64,000 nucleotides of DNA from a virus (lineage: Duplodnaviria > Heunggongvirae > Uroviricota > Caudoviricetes), in the IMG/VR virus record IMGVR_UViG_3300020049_016248, one strand, 5' to 3'. The position numbers and the translations under genes were made by a program. Below the pieces are notes generated by a model. It was not told where the DNA came from. It saw nothing but the letters and a program-made list of their open reading frames with translations, and searched no databases. Shown here one piece after another: positions 1 through 31,326 of the stretch; within the stretch, counting starts at the first letter, position 1; each line of letters begins with the position of its first letter.

Positions 1-2324
1 GTTACGAATTAGAAGTAATTAAAGATAAACAATTTAGTGATTATTTTTTAATTGTAGAAGATTTATTGAAATGGGCACGTCAAGAAGGTATTGGTGTAGG
101 TGTTGGTCGTGGTTCTTGTGGTGGTAGTTTATTAGCATACGCTTTAGATATTATTGCTCTTTCACCTGTTAAGTATGATTTATATTTCGAACGTTTTCTT
201 AACCCACAAAGAGAAAGTGCTGTAGATATCGATTTAGATATTGAAAATGGTGGTAGGGAGAAAATTAGACATTACTTAGAAGATAAGTATGGTAAAGAAT
301 CTGTTTTAGGTGTAGTAACTTTCCATTTATATGGACCTAAATCAGCATTACAAGATGCATCAAGAGGGTTGAAGAGAGATACTTCTTTTGAGTCTACATT
401 AATGAAAGAGGTTACAAAGTTACCTGACTTAGATGAACAAAAAGATTTAGTAACATATTTCCAAAAAGTATATAAAACTTCAACTTCTGAAACAGTTTTA
501 AAGTGGTGTGAAGACAATCAAGATACAATTCTTTACGCTAATAAATTGTTAGGTCAACCTAAAAATCTAGGAACTCATGCTGGTGGAATTTTAATTGCCC
601 CAGGGCCTGTTTATGATTATATCCCTGTTACTAGAGGAGGTGGTGAGGTTGTTACTGCATTTAAAGAAGCAGATGGTTCATCTAAAGATTTATCTGAACT
701 AGGATTATTGAAGTTAGATGTTTTAGGTTTGAGAACATTAAACGTTATAAATAATTGCGTTAAAAAAATTAAAATAGATTTAGGTGTAGATTTAAAACAA
801 GAAATATTAGACTTAGATTTGAGTAACCCTGAATTGTTTGAATTGATTCAAAAAGGTAATTTGTATGGTTTATTTCAATTAGACGGAGGAGCTTCACCTT
901 TGGTTAAGATGATTAAACCAAATCGATTTGAAGATATTGTAGCTATTAACTCTTTAAATCGACCAGGTCCACTAGAAACATTTGGACCTGTTTATGCAAA
1001 GTGGAAAAGACATTATGAAGAAGGGAAACCAGAAAAGTGTAAAGAAGATGAAATTTACCCTAAACTAGACTTTATGTTGAAAGCAACAAAAGAAAGTTAT
1101 GGTGCATTAATTTTCCAAGAACAATTTATGTTTATGGTCAAAGATGCAGCAGGGTTTAATTTAGGTGAAGCAGATAATTTTAGAAGAGCTATTGCTTGGA
1201 CTAAAGATCATCCTAAATATTATACAGTGAAAAAATACTTTGATACATTAGAAACAAAAATGCTTGAAAAAGGTTATTCCCAAGCAGACGTTGATTATTT
1301 TGTTGATTATTGTAGAAAATTCATGGGTTATTCTTTTAATAAATCCCATGCTTTGTTCTATAGTTATACAGGTATGCAATGTGTTTACTTAAAAAAGTAT
1401 TACCCTGCATATTTCTATGCTGAGTTAGCTAATGTAGAAAGTCATGAAAAGATAAGAGAAATTGTAGTTGATGCAATAGCAAATGGAATTAATGTTTTAG
1501 CTCCTTCTGTTACTAAATCACAACATGGATTTTCAGTTGAAAATGAAAAAACTATCAGAATGGGTTTCAATGCTTTAAAAGGTTTTGGTGACAAGGCGTA
1601 TGAAGAATTAGTAACCCTTAAAGTTAGTGATAGTAAAAACATTTATGATATTTTAACTTTACCATTTAAAAAATTAAACGTATCTGCATTTCAATCTTTA
1701 ATAGATGTAGGTGCATTCGATGAGTTTGGTGTTGAGAGAGAAAAGATTGAAAGTATAAGAGCTTTATATAAAGACCCAAAAATAGAAAAATGGTTTACTC
1801 GTAAAAGAAAACCATTAGACTTAACAACTATGCCACCTTCTTTATTAGATTTCCCTGAAGAAGTTGTTATGGGGTTAGCAGAAAAACATAAAGATGATCC
1901 GGATCATTGGAAAAAACTAATTCATGAATTAATTCCTTTCATTAAAGTTAAACCTCTTAAAGAAGAGGTTAAAAATAATCGTGAGGAAAACATATTAGGA
2001 TTTAGTTTAAAACAGGTAAGTAGTTTAGCGGAGTTACTTACTTTAGCAGAAAAATACCCTACCTTAAACTTAAAATCTCTAAGTCTTCATAATAATGAAT
2101 CAGATTTATGTTATTGGAGTTTGGTAAAAAGAACTGTTCTAAAAACAAAAAGGGGAAAAGAATATTTAAACTTAGAAATATCTGACGGTAGTACCACAAT
2201 AAAAGCTAAATGTTGGGATATGCTTGATTTGAAAAAAGGAAAAGCATACGTAAGTAATTTGAAAAAAGATTTATACGGGTATACTATTATTAACAATGGT
2301 TTATTAACAGAGATAGATTTGTAA
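1..2324 (+). CDS. dnaE: DNA polymerase III alpha subunit (DnaE-type, C-family), C-terminal portion; 5' end runs off the window
   Basis: The frame is open from base 3 with no upstream stop, so the M at 66 is not the true start. Motifs GIGVGVGRGSCGGSLLAYALDI, HAGGILIAPGPVYDYIPV and FNKSHALFYSYTGMQCVYLKKYYPAYFYAEL match DnaE palm/fingers signatures (GRGSaaGSLV, HAGGVVI, FNKSHAAAYA..YPAEFMAA). An OB-fold-like C-terminal tail is present. Confidence 0.85.
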   Translation, partial: YELEVIKDKQFSDYFLIVEDLLKWARQEGIGVGVGRGSCGGSLLAYALDIIALSPVKYDLYFERFLNPQRESAVDIDLDIENGGREKIRHYLEDKYGKESVLGVVTFHLYGPKSALQDASRGLKRDTSFESTLMKEVTKLPDLDEQKDLVTYFQKVYKTSTSETVLKWCEDNQDTILYANKLLGQPKNLGTHAGGILIAPGPVYDYIPVTRGGGEVVTAFKEADGSSKDLSELGLLKLDVLGLRTLNVINNCVKKIKIDLGVDLKQEILDLDLSNPELFELIQKGNLYGLFQLDGGASPLVKMIKPNRFEDIVAINSLNRPGPLETFGPVYAKWKRHYEEGKPEKCKEDEIYPKLDFMLKATKESYGALIFQEQFMFMVKDAAGFNLGEADNFRRAIAWTKDHPKYYTVKKYFDTLETKMLEKGYSQADVDYFVDYCRKFMGYSFNKSHALFYSYTGMQCVYLKKYYPAYFYAELANVESHEKIREIVVDAIANGINVLAPSVTKSQHGFSVENEKTIRMGFNALKGFGDKAYEELVTLKVSDSKNIYDILTLPFKKLNVSAFQSLIDVGAFDEFGVEREKIESIRALYKDPKIEKWFTRKRKPLDLTTMPPSLLDFPEEVVMGLAEKHKDDPDHWKKLIHELIPFIKVKPLKEEVKNNREENILGFSLKQVSSLAELLTLAEKYPTLNLKSLSLHNNESDLCYWSLVKRTVLKTKRGKEYLNLEISDGSTTIKAKCWDMLDLKKGKAYVSNLKKDLYGYTIINNGLLTEIDL

Positions 2325-2764
2325 TGTCTTTAGAGGATTTAATAGAAAAAAGCGTTAAAGATGAAAAAAGGATAAGGGAAGAACACTTAGTGTTAGAAAG
2401 CTATCAACGTTCTAACCCTTGGGTCGTAAATTCTTTATTATCTCAACTAGAAGAAGAAGGGTATCCAAAGATCCCTTCTTTTGAAGAAGCAGTTTCCTTA
2501 AGAGAAGAATATCTTTTAACTGATTTAAGTAAAGTATACTCGCAAATAAAAAAACGTAACCCTTTATTGATTGATAGAGGGCAAGAAGAAGTTTATTTTT
2601 ATTCTGTCAAAAAAAATCTATATAAACAACAACAAAAAAAAGGTTTATCTTTAGGGGATAAAGATACTAGTGGAAATTTAGTATCAGGTAGCAATATTGT
2701 CTTAGAAGTAGCTACTGTTAACCTGAAAGATTTTCTATATACTTATTATCAAACAAGAAATTAA
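2324..2764 (+). CDS. hypothetical protein (ATGA start/stop overlap with dnaE)
   Basis: 146-aa ORF, same strand, translationally coupled to the upstream gene. Confidence 0.5.
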   Translation: MSLEDLIEKSVKDEKRIREEHLVLESYQRSNPWVVNSLLSQLEEEGYPKIPSFEEAVSLREEYLLTDLSKVYSQIKKRNPLLIDRGQEEVYFYSVKKNLYKQQQKKGLSLGDKDTSGNLVSGSNIVLEVATVNLKDFLYTYYQTRN

Positions 2765-3744
2765 GAAATCTTATCTTCTAAACTGTCAAATTGTTGTTTA
2801 ATTCTATTTGAATATAAAGTTGAATATTCACCGTTTGAACCAGACACTTTCAAAGCAACTCTTTTAATTTTCTTAGTTACTTCACTTTCAGTAGTATATG
2901 GTACGTATTGATATTCACCAGAAGCGTTAGCATGAATTTTTACTGCTTGTACAGGGATAATAGAATTTGTATTCAAGAATAGATCATCCCAATCCACATT
3001 TGTTGAACGTGTAGCAATAATTTGTTCATTCGCATTAAACGGTGCAGCAGACCAACGTGTTTTATAAGATAAAATTCTACTATTTGAACCAGTATAATTT
3101 AAGATATACTTTATTAATAGAATATAATTACTTCTACCTGTTGTTTGAATTAAACCTCTACCTCTAAATTTGTAAAAATCACATTCTGTTAAAAATGTAG
3201 CAGGTGTTGTTCTAACAGCATCTTGTAAATTTGTAAAACTATCTGTAGGAAAAGTTTCTTTTTGCCATCTAGTGTCTAAAGTGTTTCGAAGTTGTGTTGC
3301 ATAAGACAAAGTTCCATGTGCTGCTTGATAGTTAAGGTCTCTAAACAAATGATATGCATTTATATTACCTGGTAAAGTGTTATAAGATTTTTTTCCACCA
3401 GAATTAAATGCATAAGCAATACCTGGTTTGTTAGGGTTTGAAACACTATTTACACTTTCTGAGAGTGGGGTGAATAAACCTCCAGTTTCATTTATTATAA
3501 TTGTATTCAAAGCTACAAACTCTAATAAGTTAAAACTACCATTGTTATCTGTATAAATAACAGAACCTGCTAGGTCCCAAAACTCTTTCCATTTAGCAGA
3601 GTTTGCTATTCTTCGTGATTCTTTACCACCAAACGCTTCAATGTTTCCATGATTCGTATTAAACCATGACACAAAACTACTTCCAGTTATACTTTTAAAG
3701 TAACTATCTATATCTGTACTGTTTTTAAATGTAACTGTAGCCAT
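2761..3744 (-). CDS. glycoside hydrolase family 19-like lysozyme/chitinase domain protein (endolysin or virion-associated lysin candidate)
   Basis: FYKFRGRGLIQTTGRSNY matches the GH19 catalytic signature (F/Y-x-GRG-x-IQ-L/T-T-G-x-x-NY) seen in phage GH19 endolysins. Confidence 0.65.
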   Translation of the reverse strand: MATVTFKNSTDIDSYFKSITGSSFVSWFNTNHGNIEAFGGKESRRIANSAKWKEFWDLAGSVIYTDNNGSFNLLEFVALNTIIINETGGLFTPLSESVNSVSNPNKPGIAYAFNSGGKKSYNTLPGNINAYHLFRDLNYQAAHGTLSYATQLRNTLDTRWQKETFPTDSFTNLQDAVRTTPATFLTECDFYKFRGRGLIQTTGRSNYILLIKYILNYTGSNSRILSYKTRWSAAPFNANEQIIATRSTNVDWDDLFLNTNSIIPVQAVKIHANASGEYQYVPYTTESEVTKKIKRVALKVSGSNGEYSTLYSNRIKQQFDSLEDKIS

Positions 3745-6593
3745 TATTTAACCTTATCTATTAAACTTTGTTTAACTAAAACAGATGAACTAGAAGCTGT
3801 TGCAGCGGTTGCTTTTGTGTTAACGTTTCTATTTGCAATCTCTCCTAGGTTGTTGTTATCTTGTTTTGTAACCTCTTGAGCAAAGTTGTTTCTACCATCA
3901 GCAGAAGAAAATTTCTTATTATCTTTTTTACCTTCCTTTTCCACATCTTCATTAAGTTTTAATATTCTAGCTCCAATGATTGAAGATGTAAATTTATGAC
4001 CTGATAATTTATGAGTTACTTCTAGTATTTGATATTCTCCATCAAAGAAACCCAAACCTTTAACAAAAATTCTTTTACCTGGACCTAACCAAGGATGAGC
4101 TAAACATTCTATAGTACAGTTTTGAAATTGGGAGAAAACAATTGTTAAATTTCTTTTTTTATCTGCAACTGTAACTGGTTTATTATATTCATCATTGTTG
4201 TTTACTTCATCTAAACTTGCTAAATCAGCAACTTGATTGTTAGCTGCAATAGATGCAGCATTAGGGGTACTTGTTTTTTCTACATTTAACGAAGTAATTA
4301 ACGAACCTTGAAACCTGTAAGAAAACACATCTTTCTCTTCAATAAACGTTTGTATAGTAGCTTGTTTAGGGGAATTACTAAACTCATTATCTCTATTAAT
4401 TTGTTGTTGAGGTTTAGCATATAGTTTATCTGCAGCTAATGTAGTTGCTATAATCCAAGTAGAATTAATACCTGCACCTGAACCAGTAGCTGCAGATAAC
4501 AATTCACATTCATTTTCTTGTAATACAGTTCTCAACCAGCGTAAAATTGTCCATTTATCATCTGAATTTTGCGGTGTGAATAACTGTTTATATTGATCTT
4601 TAGGAATTGTTAGTAAAATTTGGTCTGGGTGAATTTGATCTTGATTACCACCTTGCTCACCTCCAATAATACTTAAAAAATTACTAAAATCTCTTGACGT
4701 TGCTCTTGCTTTAATATTTTGTTCACTATATTGTCTTCTTTTATTTCTTTCTGCTGAATCAGTAATTTGAATTAATTGAGAGTTGTTAACGTCCATCATA
4801 ACATTTAAAATCAATTCACCCAAAGTAATAGTTCTACCTTTCTTTAAAGTGTTTCGTGTAAAGATTGCGAAGTCTAAAGGGTAATTGAAAACTATAGACC
4901 CTGTAGTTCTAAAACTTAAAGCTGCATGTAAAGCTCCTTTATCATCCATCGACAACTCAGGATTTAATAAAGCAATTTTAACATAATTACTCATATCTAA
5001 GTTTGTACGTGAAACTACTACTTGACCATTTTCTTCATTAAATGTAATACCATCATCAAACAAGTTTAATGTACCAGCAGTGTAATTACTTTCTGTATTA
5101 ATAGATTGAGTTAATGTGATTACATTTTTCCCTGGTATTAGTTGATTAGCTATTTTATTTCTAAAACTTCCATTTTCATCATCGAAAACAGCCCAACCAG
5201 GGTGATTCCAAAACTTTACTGAATTTGGATCATCTTTATCGTTCGGACTTGGAACTCTTATTTGCCAACCATATCTAAACCAAAAATCACCACCTACGTT
5301 TCCTGGACGAACATCATAAATGAAAGACCAAGGTGAATTTATATCTGTGAATTTATTACCTTGAACATCAACTAAAGTCATTTTAATTAATGTTAATCCG
5401 TTATCAGCTGTTTTACCAGCTTGAATTTCTAAATCTTGGAAGCCGATAGCTCCTGGTTTCGAAGCAACCCCATCGACAGGTGAAGGTGATAATACTAATT
5501 GACCGAACACTCTAACACCTACTCCTCTTTGAGCAAACACTTTCTTTCCACTTTCTGACTGTTCACCAATAAAATCAATACCTTCTTTAAAAGGGTCTAA
5601 GTTATATAAGTCTGCAATTCCCTTAGAATTGTTTTGAATATCAGCTGTTAAATTAAATCTTTCTTGAGAAAAACCTGGGGCTACTTCGTTTTGATATTTT
5701 GTAGCAGCGTTTTTAATTGAAGATAAGAGATTGCTTTTCTTATTAGAAGATTTACCTGTTGTATTGTCTTGAACATCTTCTGGAGTTTCACCTTCAGAAG
5801 CATAACCAGTAGGGTCTACAGTTATATCAGGAATAAGTTCAATGAAAGGGAAAACACTTTGAGGTGTATATCTAGTTGCGAGATAAAGTAAAAACTGTTT
5901 TAATCCAATCCAATCACTATCTTCATCAGAAGAAGATTTCTTCCCCCATGTTGCAGTAGTATCACTCAACTCTTGATTTCCAATGTTATTTGCAATCTGT
6001 TGAAAAGTATCAGTTAAATCCTGTCCTGCTTGTGTTTCATCAGCAGATGTTTCTTGAGTGTTTTCACCTGTAGAAACGTCACTCGTTGTGTTAGTTTTCT
6101 TTTCATCAGATGTTCTAGTATCTGATTCAGTTTCTCTAGAATAAGTAATCGTTATCGTTTCACTATTTGCTAATGCATTTTGAATTGAATTGAATACAAT
6201 ATTTAACGCTGTTCTAGAGTCACCAATAATATCAGTTCCTTTGGTCATACCAACCAACAAACAACCTTCAGTAGCAGTAGCATTGTTTCCAACGTGAATA
6301 CGAATACCTTCAAACCCTTTAACAGAATTAACTAATGGTAATTGTTTTTGTCCACCAATAACTCTTTCACCAACACCTGTCAATCCAGTAGGTGTTACAG
6401 TTACTCTGTATGAACCTAAAGGTATTGCAGTTTTCTTTGCAATTTTAATATTTTTTATCTCACTAACACTCATACTATTAGTTAAGTCTCTATCTTTATC
6501 TTCTAAAGTGTGACAAATGAACGTTCCATTGATTAACAAATCACCAATAGTAGTATTATTAGTTAAGGTTTTTCTTATTACTCGAATTTCCAT
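3744..6593 (-). CDS. large (949 aa) virion/tail-associated protein: N-terminal putative Cys-His peptidase-like domain, acidic Ser/Thr/Asp-rich linker, beta-rich C-terminal body
   Basis: Long ORF. N-terminus IRIHVGNNATATEGCLLVG resembles the H-x-G...(S/E)-G-C-(I/L) motif of YkuD/L,D-transpeptidase-fold domains. Low-complexity acidic region around aa 150-230. Sits between the LysM and GH19 genes. Confidence 0.5.
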   Translation of the reverse strand: MEIRVIRKTLTNNTTIGDLLINGTFICHTLEDKDRDLTNSMSVSEIKNIKIAKKTAIPLGSYRVTVTPTGLTGVGERVIGGQKQLPLVNSVKGFEGIRIHVGNNATATEGCLLVGMTKGTDIIGDSRTALNIVFNSIQNALANSETITITYSRETESDTRTSDEKKTNTTSDVSTGENTQETSADETQAGQDLTDTFQQIANNIGNQELSDTTATWGKKSSSDEDSDWIGLKQFLLYLATRYTPQSVFPFIELIPDITVDPTGYASEGETPEDVQDNTTGKSSNKKSNLLSSIKNAATKYQNEVAPGFSQERFNLTADIQNNSKGIADLYNLDPFKEGIDFIGEQSESGKKVFAQRGVGVRVFGQLVLSPSPVDGVASKPGAIGFQDLEIQAGKTADNGLTLIKMTLVDVQGNKFTDINSPWSFIYDVRPGNVGGDFWFRYGWQIRVPSPNDKDDPNSVKFWNHPGWAVFDDENGSFRNKIANQLIPGKNVITLTQSINTESNYTAGTLNLFDDGITFNEENGQVVVSRTNLDMSNYVKIALLNPELSMDDKGALHAALSFRTTGSIVFNYPLDFAIFTRNTLKKGRTITLGELILNVMMDVNNSQLIQITDSAERNKRRQYSEQNIKARATSRDFSNFLSIIGGEQGGNQDQIHPDQILLTIPKDQYKQLFTPQNSDDKWTILRWLRTVLQENECELLSAATGSGAGINSTWIIATTLAADKLYAKPQQQINRDNEFSNSPKQATIQTFIEEKDVFSYRFQGSLITSLNVEKTSTPNAASIAANNQVADLASLDEVNNNDEYNKPVTVADKKRNLTIVFSQFQNCTIECLAHPWLGPGKRIFVKGLGFFDGEYQILEVTHKLSGHKFTSSIIGARILKLNEDVEKEGKKDNKKFSSADGRNNFAQEVTKQDNNNLGEIANRNVNTKATAATASSSSVLVKQSLIDKVK

Positions 6594-6596
6594 TTT

Positions 6597-6869
6597 TTAG
6601 ATATCTTGTGATTCACCCCAAAGATCGAATACGCGAGTTAAAGGGAAAGGTATAATTAGTTTTGTTCCTATTGGAATATCAAAACTCATAAAATATTCTG
6701 GATTTGCACACATAATTACATATTCTAATGTAGCATCATTATAATATTTTAATGCTAATTGGTCAATTGTTTCATGAGCAGTTAAAACATGTTCAATATC
6801 AGTGTATGCTGGAGTAATTTTCCTCACTGGTTGAATCATAGTGTACTTATTATATCTATTGTATCCCAT
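6597..6869 (-). CDS. LysM-like small protein (phage tail protein X-like)
   Basis: 90 aa. ETIDQLALKYYNDATLEYVIMCANPEYF...IPIGTKLIIP fits the LysM pattern (DTLwgIA.kYyGd...ianaN.....lypGq.L.IP). Confidence 0.4.
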   Translation of the reverse strand: MGYNRYNKYTMIQPVRKITPAYTDIEHVLTAHETIDQLALKYYNDATLEYVIMCANPEYFMSFDIPIGTKLIIPFPLTRVFDLWGESQDI

Positions 6870-6988
6870 TAGTTTCTTTACTTTAAATAGGTTTATAGTT
6901 ACCTTGTTTAAACTGATAATTTTAAATTTAGTAGATTTTTTACAAATTAATCACAATTTTTAGCTTAATTAATTAGCAAAAATATAAT

Positions 6989-7453
6989 ATGAAAGATAAA
7001 TTATACTGGTTAAATTTAATTAACCCTGGAATGGTTTCTGATAGAACGTTAGAAACTAATTTAAAAGAAGTTGCATCTACAGCATTTCGCTTAAATGATT
7101 TAATCATTTTCACTTCCCCAGAAAAGATTGATGTCATTCACGAAACTTTGAAGAAAGATAAACCAAGTGGGTTGATGTATGTTTTGCTTGATGTAACGGA
7201 AAGTTTAACTTCTGAAACATTCAAAGGGGTGATGAATCCAGCACATTATAAAAATGCAAAACAATTAATGGAGTTAATCAACTCTTATAAAAAGGTTTCA
7301 GAAACAGTTGAAGATGAATTCAAATCTTTATCTTCAAAAGAACAACAAATTTACCTTGATATTATCCTTGATAAAATTTCTGCTAAAGGAATTGAATCTT
7401 TGGATGAGAAAGATAAAAGATTTTTAGAATTTAGCAAAAAAGAAAAAAAATAA
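6989..7453 (+). CDS. hypothetical protein
   Basis: 154-aa ORF; acidic/lysine-rich C-terminus. Confidence 0.5.
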   Translation: MKDKLYWLNLINPGMVSDRTLETNLKEVASTAFRLNDLIIFTSPEKIDVIHETLKKDKPSGLMYVLLDVTESLTSETFKGVMNPAHYKNAKQLMELINSYKKVSETVEDEFKSLSSKEQQIYLDIILDKISAKGIESLDEKDKRFLEFSKKEKK

Positions 7454-8561: not shown

Positions 8562-8948
8562 ATGCATATAAAAGCAGCTAACTTTATAGGACTTGTAATG
8601 ATACATTTTTTTATGAAATGTATCTACGAATTATCTTTAGGAAATTACATATCAAGTCTTGTCGAATTATTTGTTAGTCTTTTGTATTTTTGGCTTTTGA
8701 AAGGTGAACGTGAAATCCCAGTTGATAGAAAAACATTTTCCAGGAATTACAATTTCCCTTATATTTGCTTTGCTCTTTTTGCTATACTTGATTTTATATT
8801 GATCAAAACTACACTTATGTCTTCTGGTGTAATGATTTCTTCTTTACTTTTAAGTATTTATGCTCTTTACATATTAATTGCACCTAAAAAATCAATACTA
8901 GGGTTAGATATGGAAGTTCACAAGTTGTTTGGTAAACTTTTTAAATAA
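8562..8948 (+). CDS. hypothetical membrane protein
   Basis: 128 aa with several hydrophobic segments. Confidence 0.4.
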   Translation: MHIKAANFIGLVMIHFFMKCIYELSLGNYISSLVELFVSLLYFWLLKGEREIPVDRKTFSRNYNFPYICFALFAILDFILIKTTLMSSGVMISSLLLSIYALYILIAPKKSILGLDMEVHKLFGKLFK

Positions 8949-11596: not shown

Positions 11597-12769
11597 ATGA
11601 CAAAAACAGTAACAAAACCAAAAGACCCTAAAACAGTAGTATTTTCAGGTGTTTTTATGAAACTTGCCGACATGAAAGGTGAAAAGAAATTAATCATCTC
11701 ACCTCAGCAAGAGCCTTTATCTCCAACAGAAGCAATTGTTAAACCAGAAATTCAAGCTCAATTTAATAGCTCTGAATGGTATCAAGGTGATTTACTTCAA
11801 ACTGATGAAGGTTTCACTCCAACAGGAACATTGAAAGCTTTAAAAACAAAACCATCTCAAGATGATTTGAAAGCTGTTCGTTCTCGTGTTGAAGCTGCTT
11901 ATTCTGAAATTGCTGCTTTAAAAACTGCATGGGAAGATTACAAGCAATATGAATTTAAAATTGCATCTGGTATTGCAGAAGTTCCAGCAGGGTTAGAAAT
12001 TGACGACAAAGTATGGAACTTGATTTGTACGTCTGCAAAAATTGACAAATACATTCTTTTATTAGGACCTAAAGGTTGTGGTAAAACAGAAACTGCTAAA
12101 CAATTAGCTGCTGCAACAGGTATGGAACTTGTATCTTTCAATATGGGAGCTGCATTTAAACCAAAACAAATGTTTGCTGGAATGTTACAAGCAGAAAACG
12201 GTGACACTGTGTTTATCGAATCTGAATTCTTGAAAGCTTTCCAATCAGAAACACCAACATTAATTTTCTTGGATGAGTTAACTCGTACTCCACAAGTAGC
12301 TACAAACTATTTGATGACAATCCTTGACCGTAACCAATCTTATATTTACATTGAAGAATTAGGTAAACGTGTTTACCGTGGTTCAGGTGTAAGATTTATC
12401 TGCGCTGGTAACGTAGGGTCACAATATACAGATACACGTACAATTGACGGTGCATTCTGGGATCGTTTTATTAAATTGCCAGTGGATTACTTGTCACAAG
12501 CAAAAGAAGAAAAACTTGTTATGTCTCGTGCACCAAAAGCTAATCCAAAAGCAGTAAAAACTTTGATTGACCGTGCAAAGAAAACTCGCGAAGCTGAAAA
12601 ATCTGGTAAATTAAGTTCAGCAATTTCAACACGTCAGTTGATTGATATGGCTCACTACCTTGAATTAGGGTTTACAGTTGAAGAAGTTTTTGAAAACATT
12701 TTCTTAAATAACTTCATCAATGGAAACAATGATGAGCGTTCAGAAATCAAGGCAATCTGCCAATCATAG
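11597..12769 (+). CDS. cobS: CobS-like MoxR-family AAA+ ATPase
   Basis: Walker A LLLGPKGCGKTETAKQLA, Walker B LIFLDELTR, sensor region. Paired with a downstream vWA protein as in CobS/CobT and CbbQ/CbbO. Confidence 0.8.
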   Translation: MTKTVTKPKDPKTVVFSGVFMKLADMKGEKKLIISPQQEPLSPTEAIVKPEIQAQFNSSEWYQGDLLQTDEGFTPTGTLKALKTKPSQDDLKAVRSRVEAAYSEIAALKTAWEDYKQYEFKIASGIAEVPAGLEIDDKVWNLICTSAKIDKYILLLGPKGCGKTETAKQLAAATGMELVSFNMGAAFKPKQMFAGMLQAENGDTVFIESEFLKAFQSETPTLIFLDELTRTPQVATNYLMTILDRNQSYIYIEELGKRVYRGSGVRFICAGNVGSQYTDTRTIDGAFWDRFIKLPVDYLSQAKEEKLVMSRAPKANPKAVKTLIDRAKKTREAEKSGKLSSAISTRQLIDMAHYLELGFTVEEVFENIFLNNFINGNNDERSEIKAICQS

Positions 12770-12795
12770 TTACCAAGTATTACATTGAAATGTAT

Positions 12796-12827
12796 AAAGC
12801 CGCTAGGTTGTTTACTTTAGCGGCTTT
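12796..12827 (+). terminator. hairpin (aaagccgcta / tagcggcttt) between cobS and cobT, overlapping promoter-like motif copy 1
   Basis: 10-bp perfect inverted repeat with an 11-12 nt loop; the downstream T-run is weak. Confidence 0.35.
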
Positions 12828-12835
12828 ATCTTTAG
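12810..12835 (+). promoter_or_regulatory. promoter-like bipartite motif GTTTAC-N11-TATCTTTAG (copy 1)
   Basis: Exact match to a motif repeated 6 times in the window; ATG at 12860. Confidence 0.5.
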
Positions 12836-12859
12836 TTAAATTTAAAAATCAATACTCAT

Positions 12860-14839
12860 ATGAAAAAAATAGGTTCAGCATCAGGTCCTTCTAAGGCTTC
12901 AAAACATTTAGGAAAAAAAATGTTTTCTCGTGATAAAAAACTTGAAGATAAAAAAATTACTAAACCTTTAGAAGAGGTACATCCAGATGAGAAATTTTAT
13001 AACGTTGACAAAAACGAATTAGAAGAAGTAATGTCTTCTAAAAACCGTACGTCAAGTTACTGGTTGCCAGAAACAGATATTCCTGATTACTTTGTGTTAC
13101 AACGTATGATGAAAAACATTAATACTGTTTGTGGTTTTATCACTGGAAAAGCATTGAGAGTTAATTTCTCTGAGATTGATGGTCCAAGTCATGCAGATTT
13201 TGCTGGTGAAGAAATTACTATTTCTATCGGCTCATTATATGACTACCGTATTCCTTTCCATATGAGATTGAATATTGTTTTAGCTTTAGGTATTCATGAA
13301 TCTTGGCATGTAAAATATACTACTCCTGCTATGGAGAGAATGTTAGTGCAAAATGGTTTAACAAAAAGTAAAATTTCTCGTTTTGGATTTGGTAAAACTC
13401 AAAAAGTTGCAGACTTTAGCCAAAGTGGTAAACTTTTCAAACATAACTTCCAAACATTTTTAGCAAATTGTGTTGAAGATAGACGTATTGAACATTTAGG
13501 GTTAATTGATTACCCTGGGTATGTTTACTACATGGAAGAGTTTCGTAAATACGGGTTGTGGTGTAACATTAATGCTTTGTTAAACCCTGTAACTAAACCA
13601 GATTGGAATAACCCAGACCATTTTTATGGTGCATTAACACAATACATTGCATTTAAAAATGTAGCTCCAGAAATCTTACCAGTATTTGCTTCTTATGGAC
13701 CGAATACAAAAGAATTCAAAGCTTTAACAGATAAAGTAGATGCAATTTGTAAAGACGTTCCATTAACTTACGATGACACAATGTCACAGTCTTTAGAATT
13801 GTTGAAATTGTATCCTGACGAGCAAAAAAACAAACAAGCTAAGGAAAAAAATTGTAACGGAGATGGTAACGGTAAAAATCAAGGACCACAAATGGCAGAA
13901 GGAACTGCTGCTGATGGTAAAACTGTAAAACCAAGTAAAGACGAAAAAGAAGCAATTGGTGACATAAAAGACGATAATCAACCTTATGCTACTTCTGAGC
14001 AAAAAGATATTAAAATTGAAGATCGTTTTGACAAACATGACCAATACAGCCACGTTCATATTGAACCTGCAGCAGAAGGTCGTTTTGACCAAGCTGTTTT
14101 TGACCAAGCAAGTGAAATTGCTCGTCAAATTAGCAAAAATTTATCTTTCTTAGATTCACGTTTCAATCGTGTAACAGAAGCTTTTGAAATGAGAAATGGT
14201 GAATTGGATGAGGATGCAATCTTTGGTTTAAAATTCAACAAGGATATTTTCTACGAAGAAGAAGAAGCTCCAGGTTACTCAATGGATTTTGGAATCTTGA
14301 TTGATGAGTCTGGTTCAATGCACGGTAGCAAAATTCGTGATGCTAAAATTGCTGCATTAGCTTTAGCAATTGCTTTGAAAGATAACCAACATATTAACTT
14401 GTTTGTTTACGGTCACACTGCAAATACAGGAGGTCACCCAATTACAATGTACAAATACTTTGACCAATTAGAAAAAGGTTGCCAAGATATTTCAACATTG
14501 TTTTCAGTAGAAGCAAGATCTAACAATGCAGATGGTTATGCAATTTCTGCAATGGGAGATATCTTAAACAAAGGTAAATCAAGACAAAAAGTTTTAATTG
14601 TTGCATCTGACGGTCAACCACACGCATCAGGTTACGGTGGAAGACAAGCTAACCAACATACTGCTCAAATGGTTCAAAAACTTGAAATGCAAGGAATGTT
14701 TGTTTGTCAAATTGCAATGGAAAACTTTAACTCTGCTGAAATGTTTACAAACTTTGTTCCTTATGACAAAAACAGCTTAGGAGTTAACTTGAAAAAAGTG
14801 TTGTTAAAAAAATTAGTAGAAATCTCAAACTTAGTATAA
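12860..14839 (+). CDS. cobT: CobT-like von Willebrand factor A (vWA) domain protein with N-terminal HExxH-containing region
   Basis: C-terminal MIDAS motif LIDESGSMHG (DxSxS) followed by IVASDGQP. HESWH motif near aa 150. Immediately downstream of the MoxR AAA+ gene. Confidence 0.75.
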   Translation: MKKIGSASGPSKASKHLGKKMFSRDKKLEDKKITKPLEEVHPDEKFYNVDKNELEEVMSSKNRTSSYWLPETDIPDYFVLQRMMKNINTVCGFITGKALRVNFSEIDGPSHADFAGEEITISIGSLYDYRIPFHMRLNIVLALGIHESWHVKYTTPAMERMLVQNGLTKSKISRFGFGKTQKVADFSQSGKLFKHNFQTFLANCVEDRRIEHLGLIDYPGYVYYMEEFRKYGLWCNINALLNPVTKPDWNNPDHFYGALTQYIAFKNVAPEILPVFASYGPNTKEFKALTDKVDAICKDVPLTYDDTMSQSLELLKLYPDEQKNKQAKEKNCNGDGNGKNQGPQMAEGTAADGKTVKPSKDEKEAIGDIKDDNQPYATSEQKDIKIEDRFDKHDQYSHVHIEPAAEGRFDQAVFDQASEIARQISKNLSFLDSRFNRVTEAFEMRNGELDEDAIFGLKFNKDIFYEEEEAPGYSMDFGILIDESGSMHGSKIRDAKIAALALAIALKDNQHINLFVYGHTANTGGHPITMYKYFDQLEKGCQDISTLFSVEARSNNADGYAISAMGDILNKGKSRQKVLIVASDGQPHASGYGGRQANQHTAQMVQKLEMQGMFVCQIAMENFNSAEMFTNFVPYDKNSLGVNLKKVLLKKLVEISNLV

Positions 14840-16948: not shown

Positions 16949-17473
16949 ATGAAAGAAGTAAGATTATGTGCTAATCAAGAGTGTGGTAAAGAGTTCACTG
17001 TTTGGTCTTCACAAAAGAAGAGATATTGTTGTAGAAAGTGCACAATGACTTTAGAAAGGCGAGAGTCAATAAGACAAGAGAAAACTGGAAAACCAAACCC
17101 CAAAGTATCAATTGCACTGAAAAATTCTATTTCAGCTAAAAAATATCAATTTAAAAAGGGAAAAGACAATCCAGCATTTGGACGAAATCAAACAGGTGAA
17201 GCAAATCACAATTGGAAAGGTGGAAAAACAAATAAGAATCAAAAATTAAGAAATAGTCCACAGTATAAAATTTGGCGACAAGCTTGTATGGAACGAGATC
17301 ACTTTCAATGTACTGATTGTGGTGCAAAGGGATATTTACAAGTACATCATATAAAAGAGGTCTCTAACTACCCTGAACTTATTTGGGAACTTGATAACGG
17401 AAAAACAGTTTGCGTGTCGTGTCACGAAAAAATACACGGAAGATTTATAGGAAAATTTAAACAACAAAAATAA
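16949..17473 (+). CDS. HNH homing endonuclease with N-terminal Cys-rich zinc-finger region
   Basis: C-terminal VHHIKEVSNYPELIWELDNGKTVCVSCHEKIH is an HNH motif; CxxC pairs at the N-terminus. Confidence 0.75.
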   Translation: MKEVRLCANQECGKEFTVWSSQKKRYCCRKCTMTLERRESIRQEKTGKPNPKVSIALKNSISAKKYQFKKGKDNPAFGRNQTGEANHNWKGGKTNKNQKLRNSPQYKIWRQACMERDHFQCTDCGAKGYLQVHHIKEVSNYPELIWELDNGKTVCVSCHEKIHGRFIGKFKQQK

Positions 17474-18366
17474 TGGAAAATAAAAAAAAATATGCCTGTA
17501 TAAGTTTATCAGGTGGGATGGACTCTTCTACTTTACTTCTTAAATTGTTAGTTGAAGGTTATAATGTTACTGCTTTATCTTTTAATTACGGTCAAAAACA
17601 CTCTGTAGAATTAGAAAGAGCAACTGAATTAGTGAAATATATTAAATCAGATTCAAAAGGGGCTGGAAAAAGACAATCTGGAACTTTAACTCATCAAATT
17701 ATTAAACTAGATGGTTTAGGACAATTGTTAAATTCAACTTTAGTTGAAGGTGGTTCAGATGTTCCAGAAGGGCATTATGCTGAAGAAAATATGAAAGACA
17801 CGGTTGTGCCAAATCGTAATAAAATATTTTCTTCAATTATTCAAGCAGTTGCTTTATCTATAGCAGAACAAAATAATACTGAATGCGCTATTGCTATGGG
17901 TATTCATGCTGGTGATCATGCTATCTACCCTGATTGTAGACAAGAGTTTAGAGATGCAGATTTTGAAGCTTTCAAACAAGGTAATTGGGGGTCTGAAAAA
18001 GTAATCATCTATACTCCTTATCTTCATACTGATAAATTCGGTATTTTAGAAGATGGGTTAGTTTGTTGTGAAAAGTTAAGTTTAGATTTTAACGAAATAT
18101 ATAAACGTACTAATACAAGTTATAAGCCAATTTTTATCAGAGAAGTTTCTAAACAAACAATAGACGATAAAGACTATTACACCCCTGAAAGTAATGGTAA
18201 ATGGTATTCAGATTATAAGTCAGCAAGTTCGGTAGAACGAATAGAAGCATTTATTAAATTAGGTAAACAAGACCCAGTTGAATATGCTGATGAAACAGGA
18301 CCTGTTTCATGGGAAACAGCAAAAGCTTATGTAGAGAAAGTTCTCGCTGAACATAGTAATAAATAG
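17473..18366 (+). CDS. queC: QueC-like PP-loop ATPase (7-cyano-7-deazaguanine synthase homolog) with divergent C-terminal extension
   Basis: SLSGGMDSST (SGGxDS PP-loop), LSFNYGQKH (FDYGQRH), VPNRNKIF (VPGRNILF) and YPDCRQEF (YPDCRDEF) align with E. coli QueC. The canonical C-terminal Zn-binding CxxC cluster is not evident. Confidence 0.75.
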   Translation: MENKKKYACISLSGGMDSSTLLLKLLVEGYNVTALSFNYGQKHSVELERATELVKYIKSDSKGAGKRQSGTLTHQIIKLDGLGQLLNSTLVEGGSDVPEGHYAEENMKDTVVPNRNKIFSSIIQAVALSIAEQNNTECAIAMGIHAGDHAIYPDCRQEFRDADFEAFKQGNWGSEKVIIYTPYLHTDKFGILEDGLVCCEKLSLDFNEIYKRTNTSYKPIFIREVSKQTIDDKDYYTPESNGKWYSDYKSASSVERIEAFIKLGKQDPVEYADETGPVSWETAKAYVEKVLAEHSNK

Positions 18367-22455: not shown

Positions 22456-23271
22456 ATGGAAACACTCATTGAAAGTAAAGTTAATCGATTTGTTGAAAAG
22501 TTAGAGTTAAAACGTTACTCTAAAAACACAAAAAATATATATCTTTCAAACTTTAAATCTTTTTTAAACTATTTTAAAGGAGATATAGATAATTTAAAAG
22601 ATTCAGATATTTGTAATTATATTTTAACACAATCTAAAAACAAGTCGTACTCTTATCAAAATGTGTTAACAAATACTATTAAATTTTATTACGAAAAGGT
22701 AAATTATAGAAAAAGAAGGTTTTATAAAATAGAAAGACCTAAACAAGAAAGAAAGTTACCACAAGTGATTTCTAAAGAAGAAGTTTTAAAATCTATAGAG
22801 TTAATACCTAATTTAAAACATAAAGCAATAATTTCACTAGCTTTTTCTACTGGAATGAGAGTAAGTGAGATATGTAATTTGAAAATAGTAGATATTGATT
22901 CAAAGAGAATGATTTTAAGAATTTTAGATAGTAAAGGTAAAAAAGATAGAATAGTTCCTTTATCTGAAAGTATACTAACTTTGTTGAGAAGTTATTGGCA
23001 AGAATATAAACCTAAATTTTATTTATTTGAATCCTATAAACCTGGGGTTAAATATTCGACAGCGAGTTGTAGACAAATATGGAATAAATATAAAATAAAT
23101 AAGCAAAGTACTTTTCACACTCTTAGACATAGTTTTGCTACAACTATGTTAGAAAATAAAACTGATATTAGGACAATTCAAAGACTTTTAGGTCATTCTA
23201 ATTTGAAAACAACAGAAATATATACCCACGTTTCTACTGATTATTTGAAAACTTTAAAGTTACCTATATAA
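22456..23271 (+). CDS. tyrosine site-specific recombinase (XerC/XerD-like size, 271 aa)
   Basis: Catalytic residues in order: R (GMRVSE), K, HxxR (HTLRHSFAT), H (LGHSNL), Y (EIYTHV). N-terminal SAM-like core-binding domain. Confidence 0.8.
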   Translation: METLIESKVNRFVEKLELKRYSKNTKNIYLSNFKSFLNYFKGDIDNLKDSDICNYILTQSKNKSYSYQNVLTNTIKFYYEKVNYRKRRFYKIERPKQERKLPQVISKEEVLKSIELIPNLKHKAIISLAFSTGMRVSEICNLKIVDIDSKRMILRILDSKGKKDRIVPLSESILTLLRSYWQEYKPKFYLFESYKPGVKYSTASCRQIWNKYKINKQSTFHTLRHSFATTMLENKTDIRTIQRLLGHSNLKTTEIYTHVSTDYLKTLKLPI

Positions 23272-29379: not shown

Positions 29380-29451
29380 GCGTTCTTAGCTGAGGTGGTT
29401 TAGCATTTGGTTGAAGCCCAAAAGACACTGGTTCGACTCCAGTAGATCGCA
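29380..29451 (+). tRNA. tRNA-Phe (anticodon GAA)
   Basis: Hand-folded cloverleaf: acceptor gcgttct/agatcgc (one T-T mismatch), D-arm gctg-aggtggtt-tagc, anticodon arm tttgg-ttGAAgc-ccaaa, T-arm actgg-ttcgact-ccagt. Confidence 0.6.
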
Positions 29452-29457
29452 CAATAT

Positions 29458-29531
29458 GATTCTGTAGCTCAGTTGAATAGAGCAATTGCCTTCTAAGCAA
29501 TAGGTCAAAGGTTTGAATCCTTTCAGAATCA
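29458..29531 (+). tRNA. tRNA-Arg (anticodon TCT)
   Basis: Acceptor gattctg/cagaatc perfect; D-arm gctc-agttgaata-gagc; anticodon arm attgc-ctTCTaa-gcaat; T-arm aaagg-tttgaat-ccttt. Confidence 0.8.
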
Positions 29532-29543
29532 CTTAAAATAAAT

Positions 29544-29625
29544 GCCGACGCGCTAACGTTGGAGGGTTAGGACAGTCTGTAAAACTGTTACATAAGTCTA
29601 GTAGGTTCGAATCCTATCGGCGGCA
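29544..29625 (+). tRNA. tRNA-Tyr (anticodon GTA), class II with long variable arm
   Basis: Acceptor gccgacg/cggcggc (one mismatch); anticodon arm acagt-ctGTAaa-actgt; 12-nt variable region; T-arm gtagg-ttcgaat-cctat. Confidence 0.65.
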
Positions 29626-29707
29626 CTAGCAGAACACAACTGCTGAAACAAATAGGTGATTCAGTTATCGGTGAGCAAGTCTGAACTAAAACAAAATGTT
29701 GCTTAAT

Positions 29708-29784
29708 GGACATATAGCTCAGCTGGTAGTAGCAAATGATTGTTAATCATTAGGTCGTAGGTTCGAACCCTACTATGTCCGCCA
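29708..29784 (+). tRNA. tRNA-Asn (anticodon GTT), CCA encoded
   Basis: Acceptor ggacata/tatgtcc perfect; anticodon arm aatga-ttGTTaa-tcatt; T-arm gtagg-ttcgaac-cctac; followed by gcca. Confidence 0.8.
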
Positions 29785-29793
29785 AGTAAACAA

Positions 29794-29879
29794 GCGAGTG
29801 TCGCATAGAGCCCGATTGCACCTGACTTCCAATCAGGAAAGATAAAATCACAACGCAGGTTGAAATCCTGTCGCTCGCT
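29794..29879 (+). tRNA. atypical tRNA-like gene (anticodon loop reads TCC = Gly, but 17-nt variable region, 3-bp D-stem and non-canonical T-loop ttgaaat)
   Basis: Acceptor gcgagtg/cgctcgc with a G-U pair; anticodon arm cctga-ctTCCaa-tcagg; unusual for a Gly tRNA. Possibly a pseudo-tRNA or non-canonical tRNA. Confidence 0.35.
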
Positions 29880-29923
29880 CTCAGCCAGTTGTTAAATCTG
29901 GTGAAAATTAAAACTTAACAAAC

Positions 29924-29996: not shown

Positions 29997-29997
29997 C

Positions 29998-30114: not shown

Positions 30115-30129
30115 CTAAAAAATAAAATT

Positions 30130-31316: not shown

Positions 31317-31326
31317 TAAAACACAT

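What the first reader, a model, noticed from the sequence alone, without database searches (positions are those of the whole stretch)
2761..6869. Inverted three-gene cell-wall module: LysM protein, 949-aa protein with LD-transpeptidase-like N-terminus, and GH19 lysozyme-like enzyme
These are the only consecutive minus-strand genes in the window, embedded between dnaE and + strand early genes. The small LysM protein resembles P2 gpX, which in contractile-tail gene clusters sits next to the baseplate hub. The giant protein begins with a ~120-aa domain carrying an H-x-G...E-G-C-L-L-V-G motif like YkuD-fold cysteine peptidases, then a long acidic T/S/D/E-rich linker and a large beta-rich body. The last gene has an unambiguous GH19 catalytic signature. 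Together they look like a virion-associated peptidoglycan-degrading (ejection) apparatus or an unusual lysis cassette, and the strand inversion hints at independent regulation or acquisition as a unit.
Basis: partly seen in the sequence, partly recalled or inferred. Interest (0 to 1): 0.55.

Follow-up and report, generated by a model that had tools for sequence, protein, structure and literature searches.

The report
Phage baseplate hub carrying cell-wall-cutting enzymes
This is a small operon from an uncultured giant phage that encodes the central hub of its contractile tail fused to a cell-wall-cutting enzyme, plus a small helper protein and a second cell-wall enzyme; this kind of infection tool is already known, here in a previously undescribed and unusually modular form.

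Summary
Three tightly packed minus-strand genes lie at exactly 2761-6869, and they are the only multi-gene minus-strand block in the window.

- **90-aa protein:** a LysM-fold gpX/gp53-type baseplate protein. Sequence support is weak; gene order supports it.

About 80 metagenomic relatives, on contigs up to 326 kb, keep the hub body. They swap the attached enzyme among at least seven peptidoglycan-hydrolase classes, and some fuse GH19 to the hub's C-terminus.

The best reading is a virion-borne device that opens the cell wall during infection, analogous to T4 gp5 and the diffocin hub-hydrolase. It is not a lysis cassette and not a recent acquisition. Whether the GH19 protein travels in the virion or acts as the endolysin is unresolved. 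I rate it a new variant of a known kind, of moderate interest.

The parts
6597..6869 (-). 90-aa LysM-fold protein of the gpX (P2 Tail protein X) / T4 gp53 type; inner-baseplate component and first gene of the operon
   Evidence: PHROG phrog_7145 'baseplate wedge subunit' 6e-9 and phrog_46 'baseplate hub' 2e-5. Pfam Phage_tail_X E 0.007, 16.4 bits, below the 22-bit cutoff. A family profile against PDB gives only weak hits (E 0.3-1.3); 6 of the 12 are LysM or LysM-type PG-binding domains, including P2 Tail protein X 2ltf. tblastn hits 'phage Tail Protein X' and 'baseplate wedge subunit' at E 2e-3 to 8e-3. In both of those records the LysM gene sits just upstream of the hub position (an annotated gpD in the prophage, an unannotated 246-aa gene in BCD7), as here.
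6144..6593 (-). Residues 1-150 of the 949-aa protein: DUF5675 domain, a YkuD/C82-like cysteine peptidase fold with putative catalytic H100 and C111 (codons within 6261-6296)
5949..6143 (-). Residues 151-215: acidic T/S/D/E-rich flexible linker that tethers the enzyme to the hub
   Evidence: Composition and charge. pLDDT is below 50 over residues 161-189. Linker length varies from 36 to 134 residues among homologues.
3954..5948 (-). Residues 216-880: conserved body containing the baseplate central hub fold (gp27 / gpD / Mu gp44 / XkdQ type), with extra domains
3744..3953 (-). Residues 881-949 plus the stop codon: low-confidence K/N/S-rich C-terminal tail; relatives attach a second enzyme domain at this position
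   Evidence: pLDDT is below 50 over residues 910-939. C-terminal extensions of 80-440 aa occur in many homologues. They include GH19 (P0005, P0016) and M15_4/VanY (P0060).
2761..3744 (-). 327-aa divergent GH19-fold glycosidase. Putative catalytic E86 and E96 lie at 3457-3489, and the motif DFYKFRGRGLIQTTGRSNY at 3124-3180. The gene is translationally coupled to the hub gene.
6870..6988 (.). Divergent intergenic region holding the presumed promoter of the minus-strand operon
   Evidence: This is the only non-coding gap flanking the operon. A TATTTAAA-like motif lies about 20 nt upstream of the ATG here and in relatives, but it also precedes 9 of 55 window genes, so it is not diagnostic. The sigma-70 scan finds no more sites than chance.

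Best explanation
This is a conserved structural mini-operon for the inner baseplate of an uncultured jumbo phage with a contractile tail. Gene 1 (90 aa) is a LysM-fold gpX/gp53-type protein that assembles on the hub. Gene 2 (949 aa) is the central hub itself. By analogy with solved hubs, it would form a trimeric adaptor between the six-fold tail tube and the three-fold spike. It is enlarged by extra domains. Its N-terminus carries a DUF5675 (YkuD-like His/Cys) peptidoglycan peptidase on a flexible acidic tether about 65 residues long. Gene 3 (327 aa) is a GH19-fold glycan-strand hydrolase, translated in step with the hub.

**Proposed mechanism (inferred, not shown).** When the sheath contracts and drives the tube and hub through the outer membrane, the tethered peptidase cuts peptidoglycan locally so that the tube can reach the inner membrane. 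If the GH19 enzyme docks on the hub, it contributes as well. The peptidase would cut peptide stems and the GH19 enzyme would cut glycan strands, the same 'two-blade' logic as the diffocin hub-hydrolase.

**Shown here.** The gene structure; the domain identities at sequence level (DUF5675) or fold level (hub, GH19, YkuD-like); conservation of the putative catalytic residues; modular exchange of the enzyme domain on a conserved hub body; and conserved synteny and orientation.

**Inferred.** Presence in the virion, enzymatic activity and bond specificity, timing of expression, and physical association of the GH19 protein with the hub.
For: 2. **Gene order.** The LysM gene sits immediately upstream of the hub position, the canonical order seen in TMP-gpU-TailX-gpD-gpV of a P2-like prophage. 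The LysM gene of Bacillus phage BCD7 sits likewise, after the TMP.
3. **N-terminal enzyme.** The domain matches DUF5675 at E 2e-22, keeps H100 and C111 and resembles L,D-transpeptidase folds.
4. **Enzyme exchange.** Relatives with 30-56% identity across the body carry DUF5675, M15_3, Amidase_2, GH24 lysozyme or GH73 glucosaminidase at the N-terminus. Others carry GH19 or M15_4/VanY at the C-terminus, or an internal CHAP domain. The only property these domains share is peptidoglycan cleavage, which argues that the slot exists to carry a cell-wall hydrolase.
5. **GH19 fold.** The 327-aa protein has the GH19 fold with conserved E86, E96 and the RGxIQTT..NY motif. Its structural neighbour TseP-C is an experimentally shown peptidoglycan glycosidase with a Glu dyad about 9 residues apart (PMC11893102).
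6. **Link between GH19 and the hub.** In locus L002 a GH19 domain is fused to the hub's C-terminus and there is no separate third gene. In the window the two genes overlap as TAATG.
7. **Phage context.** Relatives lie on contigs of 169-326 kb that carry DnaE, PolA, rIIA/rIIB-like and thyA genes. The window itself carries UvsX, DnaB, ribonucleotide reductase and 7 tRNAs. In L005 the hub pair is adjacent to homologues (49% and 45% identity) of window genes 39837-42283. In the window those genes lie in a block that also holds a T4 gp10_C-like tail-fibre protein.
Against: - No sequence-level link to any characterised hub exists. Pfam Phage_GPD is absent. A family profile against PDB finds nothing. 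hhalign against Mu gp44 is negative. tblastn of the body against 50,697 phage records finds nothing.
- The hub call therefore rests on an AF2 model of moderate confidence (pLDDT 68, pTM 0.63) and on gene order.
- The DUF5675 part of that model is poor (pLDDT 50-60), and DUF5675 has no demonstrated activity.
- No sheath, tube or spike gene was identified in the window, and the gene after the hub is not a spike as it is in canonical clusters.
- The 327-aa family also occurs as a stand-alone gene in cellular Bacteroidota genomes (source names). It is absent next to the hub in L004, so its tie to the hub is lineage-specific.
- There are no proteomic or expression data.
Confidence: 0.78

Rival explanations
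1. The 327-aa GH19-fold protein is the phage's endolysin, acting from within at the end of infection. It is merely co-transcribed with late structural genes. Only the hub's own DUF5675 domain is virion-borne.
For: GH19 enzymes are common endolysins of phages of Gram-negative bacteria, and the best structural matches are endolysins. The protein stands alone and has no recognisable docking domain. Its family also occurs outside any hub context, in cellular genomes and in another phage-like contig next to an amidase. The sister lineage L004 has the hub pair without it. No other peptidoglycan hydrolase turned up among the other 31 window ORFs scanned against Pfam.
Against: No holin- or spanin-like gene is adjacent. 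The start codon overlaps the hub stop. In close relatives a GH19 domain occupies the equivalent position as a covalent C-terminal domain of the hub. Only about a quarter of the genome is visible, so a separate lysis cassette cannot be excluded.
Confidence: 0.35
2. The whole three-gene block is a lysis cassette. The 949-aa protein would be a large multidomain endolysin whose body binds the cell wall rather than forming part of the tail.
For: Stand-alone DUF5675 proteins sit next to holins in crAss-like phages. All the add-on domains belong to endolysin-type families.
Confidence: 0.05
3. The enzyme-like domains are catalytically dead or serve only to bind peptidoglycan, anchoring the baseplate or tube to the wall. 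Penetration would then be purely mechanical.
For: DUF5675 has no demonstrated activity. Its His-Cys spacing (10 residues) is shorter than the 14-17 I recall for the classical YkuD motif. The GH19-like protein fails the Pfam GH19 model.
Against: The putative catalytic His/Cys and Glu/Glu residues are conserved across the families. Relatives replace the domain with bona fide hydrolase families that score above Pfam thresholds, namely M15_3, Amidase_2, GH24 and CHAP. This is hard to explain unless catalysis is under selection.
Confidence: 0.1
4. The inverted block is a recently acquired mobile module (a moron or gene cassette) rather than an ancestral part of the phage.
For: The strand is inverted relative to every neighbour. 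The enzyme domains are clearly exchanged horizontally.
Against: The inverted LysM+hub pair keeps the same flanks (DnaE plus a 146-aa gene on one side, a DUF6576 gene on the other) in relatives whose hubs are 90% and 47% identical. The inversion is also conserved in more distant loci. G+C is 0.30-0.34, the same as its surroundings. A hub is an essential structural gene. Only the third gene and the enzyme domains behave as exchangeable parts.
Confidence: 0.05

Closest known systems
Diffocin hub-hydrolase CD1368 (PDB 8v3w; PMC10996793)
   Different: In diffocin both enzymes (a lytic transglycosylase and an NlpC/P60-type endopeptidase) are C-terminal, and the hub is about 314 aa. Here the enzyme is N-terminal and belongs to DUF5675, and the body is about 665 aa. 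The glycosidase is GH19-fold and is encoded separately, though it is fused C-terminally in relatives. The diffocin target is Gram-positive. The host here is unknown, with hints pointing to Bacteroidota.
T4 gp27-gp5 cell-puncturing device, with the LysM protein gp53 (from established knowledge of T4)
   Same: Both are tail-tip complexes that bring a peptidoglycan hydrolase to the wall on contraction, with a LysM baseplate protein encoded next to the enzyme-bearing gene. As in T4, baseplate genes are scattered among replication genes.
   Different: In T4 the lysozyme (GH24) is an internal domain of the spike gp5, not of the hub gp27. No OB-fold or beta-helix spike is evident in the 949-aa protein. 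No sequence similarity was detected.
P2 gpX-gpD, R-type pyocin hub (PDB 6u5h) and Mu gp44 (PDB 1wru)
   Different: Those hubs are 320-380 aa and carry no enzyme. The next gene in those clusters is the spike (gpV), whereas here it is a GH19-fold enzyme. The Pfam Phage_GPD model does not match this protein.
Tail-associated lysins of Gram-positive phages (phi812 hub with a peptidase C51 domain, PDB 9euf; 80alpha gp59, PDB 6v8i)
   Different: They carry different enzyme families in different positions, they belong to different phage lineages, and they share no sequence similarity with this protein.
Stand-alone DUF5675 proteins of crAss-like and Bacteroides phages, annotated L,D-carboxypeptidase/transpeptidase
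   Same: They share the same domain, at 35-43% identity over about 150 aa.
   Different: Those are proteins of about 150 aa, some encoded next to a holin, and are presumed endolysins. Here the domain is fused to a structural hub.
GH19 phage endolysins and the T6SS effector domain TseP-C (PDB 9ms7, 9eoi, 8p8e, 8xcl)
   Different: This protein is 327 aa against about 180-240 aa, and only 160-180 residues superpose. Identity is 16-21%. It falls below the Pfam GH19 threshold. It represents a family of about 26 clusters with no Pfam domain covering the GH19-like region.

Membership tests
Baseplate central hub (gp27 / gpD / Mu gp44 / XkdQ fold) | The characteristic hub fold, with tube-like beta-barrel domains that form a trimeric 6-to-3-fold adaptor | tested here: met
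Baseplate central hub (gp27 / gpD / Mu gp44 / XkdQ fold) | Sequence membership in Pfam Phage_GPD or a PHROG 'baseplate hub' family | tested here: not met
   Only DUF5675 is found in Pfam at E<=1. hhalign against Mu gp44 gives probability 0.2. The family profile against PDB gives no hit. Only phrog_52 'tail protein' matches, at 6.8e-6 for this protein and in 23 of 39 family members.
Baseplate central hub (gp27 / gpD / Mu gp44 / XkdQ fold) | Position in the genome immediately downstream of the LysM (gpX/XkdP-type) gene | tested here: met
   The 90-aa gene ends 3 nt before the hub start. The same order occurs in a P2-like prophage, and the LysM gene of phage BCD7 sits likewise after the TMP. It also occurs in all five related loci examined.
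Baseplate central hub (gp27 / gpD / Mu gp44 / XkdQ fold) | Physical presence at the tail tip of the virion | not testable with these tools
   This needs virion proteomics or cryo-EM of a cultured relative, and none exists in the 50,697 phage records searched.
Pfam DUF5675 (PF18925) | A score above the curated gathering threshold | tested here: met
   79.5 bits against a 26.7-bit cutoff, E 2.3e-22, residues 5-138 covering profile positions 2-113 of 114.
YkuD / MEROPS C82 L,D-transpeptidase superfamily | The YkuD fold with a catalytic His and a Cys in an [S/T]-x-G-C motif | tested here: inconclusive
YkuD / MEROPS C82 L,D-transpeptidase superfamily | Activity on peptidoglycan stem peptides | not testable with these tools
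   No biochemical data for DUF5675 were found.
Glycoside hydrolase family 19 | The GH19 lysozyme-like alpha-helical fold | tested here: met
Glycoside hydrolase family 19 | The catalytic Glu pair and the conserved RG-x-IQ-x-[ST]...NY substrate/water-positioning motif | tested here: met
   E86 and E96 are at least 90% conserved. R194, G195, R196, G197, I199, Q200, T201, T202, R204 and Y207 are invariant in 27 homologues. The motif aligns with GH19 endolysins. Equating E86/E96 with the catalytic dyad is an inference from spacing and from TseP-C; it was not verified by superposition.
Glycoside hydrolase family 19 | Sequence membership in Pfam Glyco_hydro_19 (PF00182) | tested here: not met
   There is no hit at E<=1. 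None of the 26 homologues carries a precomputed PF00182 hit. The protein is best described as a divergent GH19-like subfamily.
LysM-fold tail protein X / T4 gp53 type | Sequence match to Phage_tail_X or gp53-type families | tested here: inconclusive
   Pfam Phage_tail_X scores 16.4 bits against a 22-bit cutoff (E 0.007), and Phage_gp53 gives E 0.11. phrog_7145 'baseplate wedge subunit' matches at 6e-9. PDB profile hits are E 0.3-1.3, and 6 of the 12 are LysM or LysM-type PG-binding domains. tblastn hits Tail Protein X at E about 3e-3. No structure was predicted for this protein.
Canonical holin-endolysin lysis cassette | An adjacent small membrane protein (holin), with or without spanins | tested here: not met
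   The neighbours are a hydrophilic 146-aa protein and a DUF6576 protein. The nearest multi-TM ORF (8562-8948) lies 1.7 kb away on the other strand, among + strand genes.

The most novel reading that the evidence does not exclude
An uncultured lineage of jumbo phages may use the N-terminus of an oversized baseplate hub, and sometimes its C-terminus, as an exchangeable slot for cell-wall hydrolases. At least seven enzyme classes appear on one conserved body. This would put DUF5675 and a new divergent GH19 subfamily into the virion. It would give DUF5675 its first functional context as an infection-stage peptidoglycan peptidase. It would also offer a natural library of hub-compatible lysin modules for engineering tailocins and phages. 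A more speculative extension is that the YkuD-like domain works as a transpeptidase that covalently anchors the tail to peptidoglycan rather than cutting it.
Probability: 0.45. Interest if true: 0.5.

Novelty: new variant of a known kind. Interest (0 to 1): 0.38.

Why it matters
Tail-borne cell-wall hydrolases determine how contractile phages and tailocins cross the cell wall, and they are used as templates for engineered antibacterials.

This locus adds a hub family that sequence annotation does not recognise. It has no Pfam or PHROG hub assignment and no relative among 50,697 deposited phage genomes. On this hub, nature has repeatedly exchanged the enzymatic part while keeping the structural scaffold.

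The locus also gives a concrete, testable context for DUF5675, a widespread domain of unknown function. It flags a GH19-like subfamily that current models miss.

The underlying principle, a hub or spike carrying a peptidoglycan hydrolase, is already well established. This is an extension of that principle, not a surprise.

Tried and rejected
- **Nucleotide similarity.** Megablast of the region against phage genomes found nothing.
- **Sequence link from the body to known hubs.** All attempts were negative: phmmer and a family profile against PDB, hhalign against Mu gp44 and tblastn of the body alone at E<=1. Mu gp44 belongs to phrog_177, not phrog_52, so phrog_52 could not be tied to a characterised hub.
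- **Is the GH19 domain fused to hub P0005 an orthologue of the 327-aa protein?** No. Only the 19-residue motif aligns, so it is an analogous but different GH19 module.
- **Are the genes flanking the homologue in L007 tandem paralogues?** No.
- **Promoters.** The T4 late promoter TATAAATA is not enriched. The sigma-70 and terminator scans are at chance level. A TATTTA[AT] motif is conserved about 20 nt upstream of the LysM gene in relatives, but it also precedes 9 of 55 window genes, so it cannot be called a specific late promoter.
- **Frameshift fusion of the hub and GH19 genes.** I considered and rejected this. A TAA stop lies in the GH19 frame just upstream of its ATG, and there is no slippery site.
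- **Recent acquisition.** Rejected on conserved synteny and matching base composition.
- **P2 gpD.** The stretch of the P2 record I fetched did not contain the gene, and I did not pursue it.
Full report
**Observation.** They are packed like an operon. A 3-nt spacer separates genes 1 and 2. The stop of gene 2 and the start of gene 3 overlap by one base, TAATG. The 3' end of gene 3 overlaps the + strand 146-aa gene by 4 nt, in convergent orientation.

GC and AT skew turn negative only over 3-7 kb. The other minus-strand ORFs of at least 110 aa lie inside + strand genes, apart from one lone 113-aa ORF at 53367-53708. G+C content (0.30-0.34) is the same as in the flanks.

H100 and T-E-G-C111 are present. 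The linker at residues 151-215 is T/S/D/E-rich. The FRGRGLIQTTGRSNY motif is present.

**The 949-aa protein.**
- Residues 5-138 match Pfam DUF5675 at E 2.3e-22.
- tblastn against 50,697 phage records finds only this N-terminal domain, at 35-43% identity. The hits are stand-alone proteins of about 150 aa in crAss-like and Bacteroides phages. They are annotated L,D-carboxypeptidase/transpeptidase, and several lie next to a holin.
- A 2026 preprint describes DUF5675 as structurally similar to MEROPS C82 (YkuD), with function still unknown.
- H100 and C111 are conserved in all DUF5675-type relatives.
- The remaining ~735 residues have no Pfam match, no PDB sequence match and no match in deposited phage genomes.
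- An AlphaFold2 model built on a 78-sequence alignment has mean pLDDT 68 and pTM 0.63, with the body mostly at 70-90.

The protein is therefore the central baseplate hub of a contractile tail, with a YkuD-like enzyme tethered to its N-terminus. The hub assignment holds at fold level only. hhalign against Mu gp44 is negative. The only sequence-level hint is phrog_52 'tail protein', which matches residues 825-906 and 23 of 39 family members.

**The family of the hub body.**
- A search of 5.8 billion proteins found 80 homologues, all metagenomic, on contigs up to 326 kb.
- An exhaustive phmmer search of 1.84 billion representatives found only 60 clusters. The family is compact and lineage-specific.
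- The body (residues ~216-880) is collinear in all members, but the ends vary.
- The N-terminal 100-210 residues are DUF5675, Peptidase_M15_3, Amidase_2, GH24 lysozyme or GH73 glucosaminidase.
- C-terminal extensions of 80-440 residues include GH19 and M15_4/VanY. One member has an internal CHAP domain.
- Bodies that are 47-54% identical to the query carry different N-terminal enzymes. This is real domain exchange, not deep divergence.
- The only property shared by all these modules is peptidoglycan cleavage. This is the strongest argument that the slot exists to deliver a wall hydrolase.

**The 90-aa protein.**
- Pfam Phage_tail_X is below threshold (E 0.007).
- phrog_7145 'baseplate wedge subunit' matches at 6e-9, and phrog_46 'baseplate hub' at 2e-5.
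- A 13-sequence profile gives only weak PDB hits (E 0.3-1.3), but 6 of the 12 are LysM or LysM-type PG-binding domains, including P2 Tail protein X.
- tblastn weakly hits an annotated Tail Protein X in a P2-like Salmonella prophage and a 'baseplate wedge subunit' in Bacillus phage BCD7.
- The prophage order is TMP-gpU-X-gpD-gpV, so the LysM gene immediately precedes the hub. In BCD7 the order is TMP, a hypothetical gene, LysM, an unannotated 246-aa gene, then gp25 and J further on.

The same order is seen here and in all five related loci examined. The gpX/gp53-type assignment is therefore reasonable, though it rests on weak sequence evidence plus synteny.

**The 327-aa protein.**
- Pfam GH19 does not match.
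- Sequence matches to solved GH19 endolysins cover only the ~25-residue motif, at E 0.017 for the single sequence and 2e-5 for the family profile.
- The 26 homologues carry no Pfam annotation on the GH19-like region. They include phage-like contigs and cellular genes from Flavobacteriaceae and an Acidimicrobiia MAG, two with peptidoglycan-binding annotations.
- E86 and E96 are nearly invariant. The block D189-Y207 contains 13 invariant positions.
- The AF2 model is good (pLDDT 85, pTM 0.87).
- Foldseek gave only TseP-C at E 0.06.
- TseP-C is an experimentally shown peptidoglycan glycosidase with a closely spaced Glu dyad (PMC11893102).

The protein is thus a divergent GH19-fold enzyme and most likely a muramidase. 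About 160-180 of its 327 residues form the GH19 core.

**Context and evolution.**
- The window is phage DNA of a replication-rich region. It carries DnaE, PolA, UvsX, DnaB, SSB, an exonuclease, ribonucleotide reductase, a CobS/CobT-like pair, QueC and seven tRNAs.
- A 90%-identical hub lies on a 245-kb contig with the same three inverted genes between DnaE and a DUF6576 gene.
- At 47% hub identity, L002 (from a 169-kb contig) has the 90-aa gene plus a 1159-aa hub, and L004 (from a 48-kb contig) has an 89-aa gene plus a 989-aa hub, both in the same inverted position. In L002 a canonical GH19 domain is fused to the hub's C-terminus and there is no third gene. In L004 there is neither.
- More distant loci keep the small gene plus the hub, inverted relative to their neighbours.
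- In L005 the pair is adjacent to homologues (49% and 45% identity) of window genes 39837-41153 and 41153-42283. In the window those genes lie in a block that also holds a T4 gp10_C-like tail-fibre protein and giant proteins with FCCH domains. That block is probably the peripheral baseplate.
- The two-gene core is therefore ancestral and essential, not a recent acquisition. The third gene and the enzyme domains are the mobile parts.
- UvsX has no close cultured relative; the best hit is 34% identical.

**Mechanism.** The best-supported model is a virion-borne device that opens the cell wall. The hub trimer sits at the tube tip. The LysM protein assembles beside it. The DUF5675 peptidase hangs from the hub on a flexible acidic tether about 65 residues long. 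On contraction it cuts stem peptides locally. The GH19 enzyme either docks on the hub's C-terminal tail, where relatives fuse a GH19 or M15 domain, and cuts glycan strands, or it is simply the endolysin.

The closest analogue is the diffocin hub-hydrolase, a gp27-like hub joined by a loop to a lytic transglycosylase and an endopeptidase (PMC10996793). T4 gp5/gp27/gp53 is the classical parallel. All functional steps here are inferred. None of presence in the virion, enzymatic activity or expression timing has been shown.

**Rivals.**
- The GH19 protein may be the endolysin, and this remains plausible (confidence 0.35). No holin is adjacent and the gene is coupled to the hub gene. But its family also occurs outside any hub context, and no other lysin was found in the window. 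Only about a quarter of the genome is visible.
- The readings as a whole-module lysis cassette, as catalytically dead domains, or as a recently acquired cassette are each poorly supported.

**Verdict.** The principle is known. The specific architecture is new: an N-terminal exchangeable enzyme slot on an oversized hub that sequence methods do not recognise, DUF5675 in a virion context, and a trans-encoded divergent GH19. I rate it a new variant of a known kind, of moderate interest.

Noticed in passing
window 39837-53058 (+): A block of large ORFs with almost no family matches (438, 376, 1720, 328, 222, 431 and 880 aa). The first two are 49% and 45% identical to genes that lie directly beside the hub pair in locus L005. 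The 328-aa protein has a T4 gp10_C-like / tail-fibre C-terminus. The 1720-aa and 880-aa proteins contain E1_FCCH-type domains. This is probably the peripheral baseplate and fibre module, separated from the hub by about 33 kb of replication genes.
   Followed up: partly
window 66-2324 (+); L001 14273-19007; L002 13931-17377: The DnaE (Pol III alpha) gene runs off the start of the window. In the 90%-identical relative L001 it is interrupted by intein-type domains (Intein_splicing, Hint) and a TnsA-like endonuclease gene. In L002 it is an intact 1148-aa gene.
   Followed up: no
window 22456-23271 (+): A tyrosine recombinase (Phage_integrase, E 3e-38) sits in what otherwise looks like a virulent, T4-style jumbo phage genome.
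   Followed up: no
window 29380-31508 (+): A cluster of seven tRNA genes (Phe, Arg, Tyr, Asn, Gly x2, Lys), with an HNH-like ORF (30705-31316) between the sixth and seventh.
   Followed up: no
window 11597-14839 (+) and 17473-18366 (+): A CobS-like AAA_5/CbbQ_C ATPase is paired with a CobT-like VWA protein. A QueC homologue (7-deazaguanine pathway, E 4e-36) suggests possible DNA or tRNA base modification.
   Followed up: no
window 8562-8948 (+): A 128-aa ORF that looks strongly hydrophobic by eye (several predicted membrane spans). It is the nearest membrane-protein candidate to the module. It lies on the opposite strand among + strand genes, and nothing indicates that it is a holin.
   Followed up: no
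window 6989-7453 (+); L001 9130-9600; L002 8289-8711; L004 4090-4530: A DUF6576 protein lies close to the hub operon on the opposite strand in the window and in three relatives (directly adjacent in the window and L001; one thyA gene away in L002 and L004). Its function is unknown.
   Followed up: no
window 6870-6900 (-) and the equivalent upstream regions in L001-L005: A TATTTA[AT]-like motif about 20 nt upstream of the start codon is conserved across relatives of the LysM gene. It is also present upstream of 9 of 55 window genes, against about 3% expected on a uniform background. It could be a promoter or translation-initiation element in this AT-rich phage, but it is not specific to structural genes.
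   Followed up: partly
window 32216-33442 and 33991-35226 (+): Two nearby genes of 408 and 411 aa both match phrog_2475 (unknown function, E 1e-63 to 1e-66), which suggests a tandem-like duplication.
   Followed up: no
window 57185-58159 (+): An HNH/homing-endonuclease gene (phrog_559, E 3e-74) is inserted between the UvsX and exonuclease genes. Further HNH ORFs lie at 16949-17473 and 30705-31316.
   Followed up: no
L003 6924-9996: In a distant relative the hub is preceded by a 746-aa gene, the 90-aa LysM gene and a separate 183-aa M15_4/VanY peptidase gene. This is another arrangement in which a wall hydrolase is encoded in trans beside the hub.
   Followed up: no
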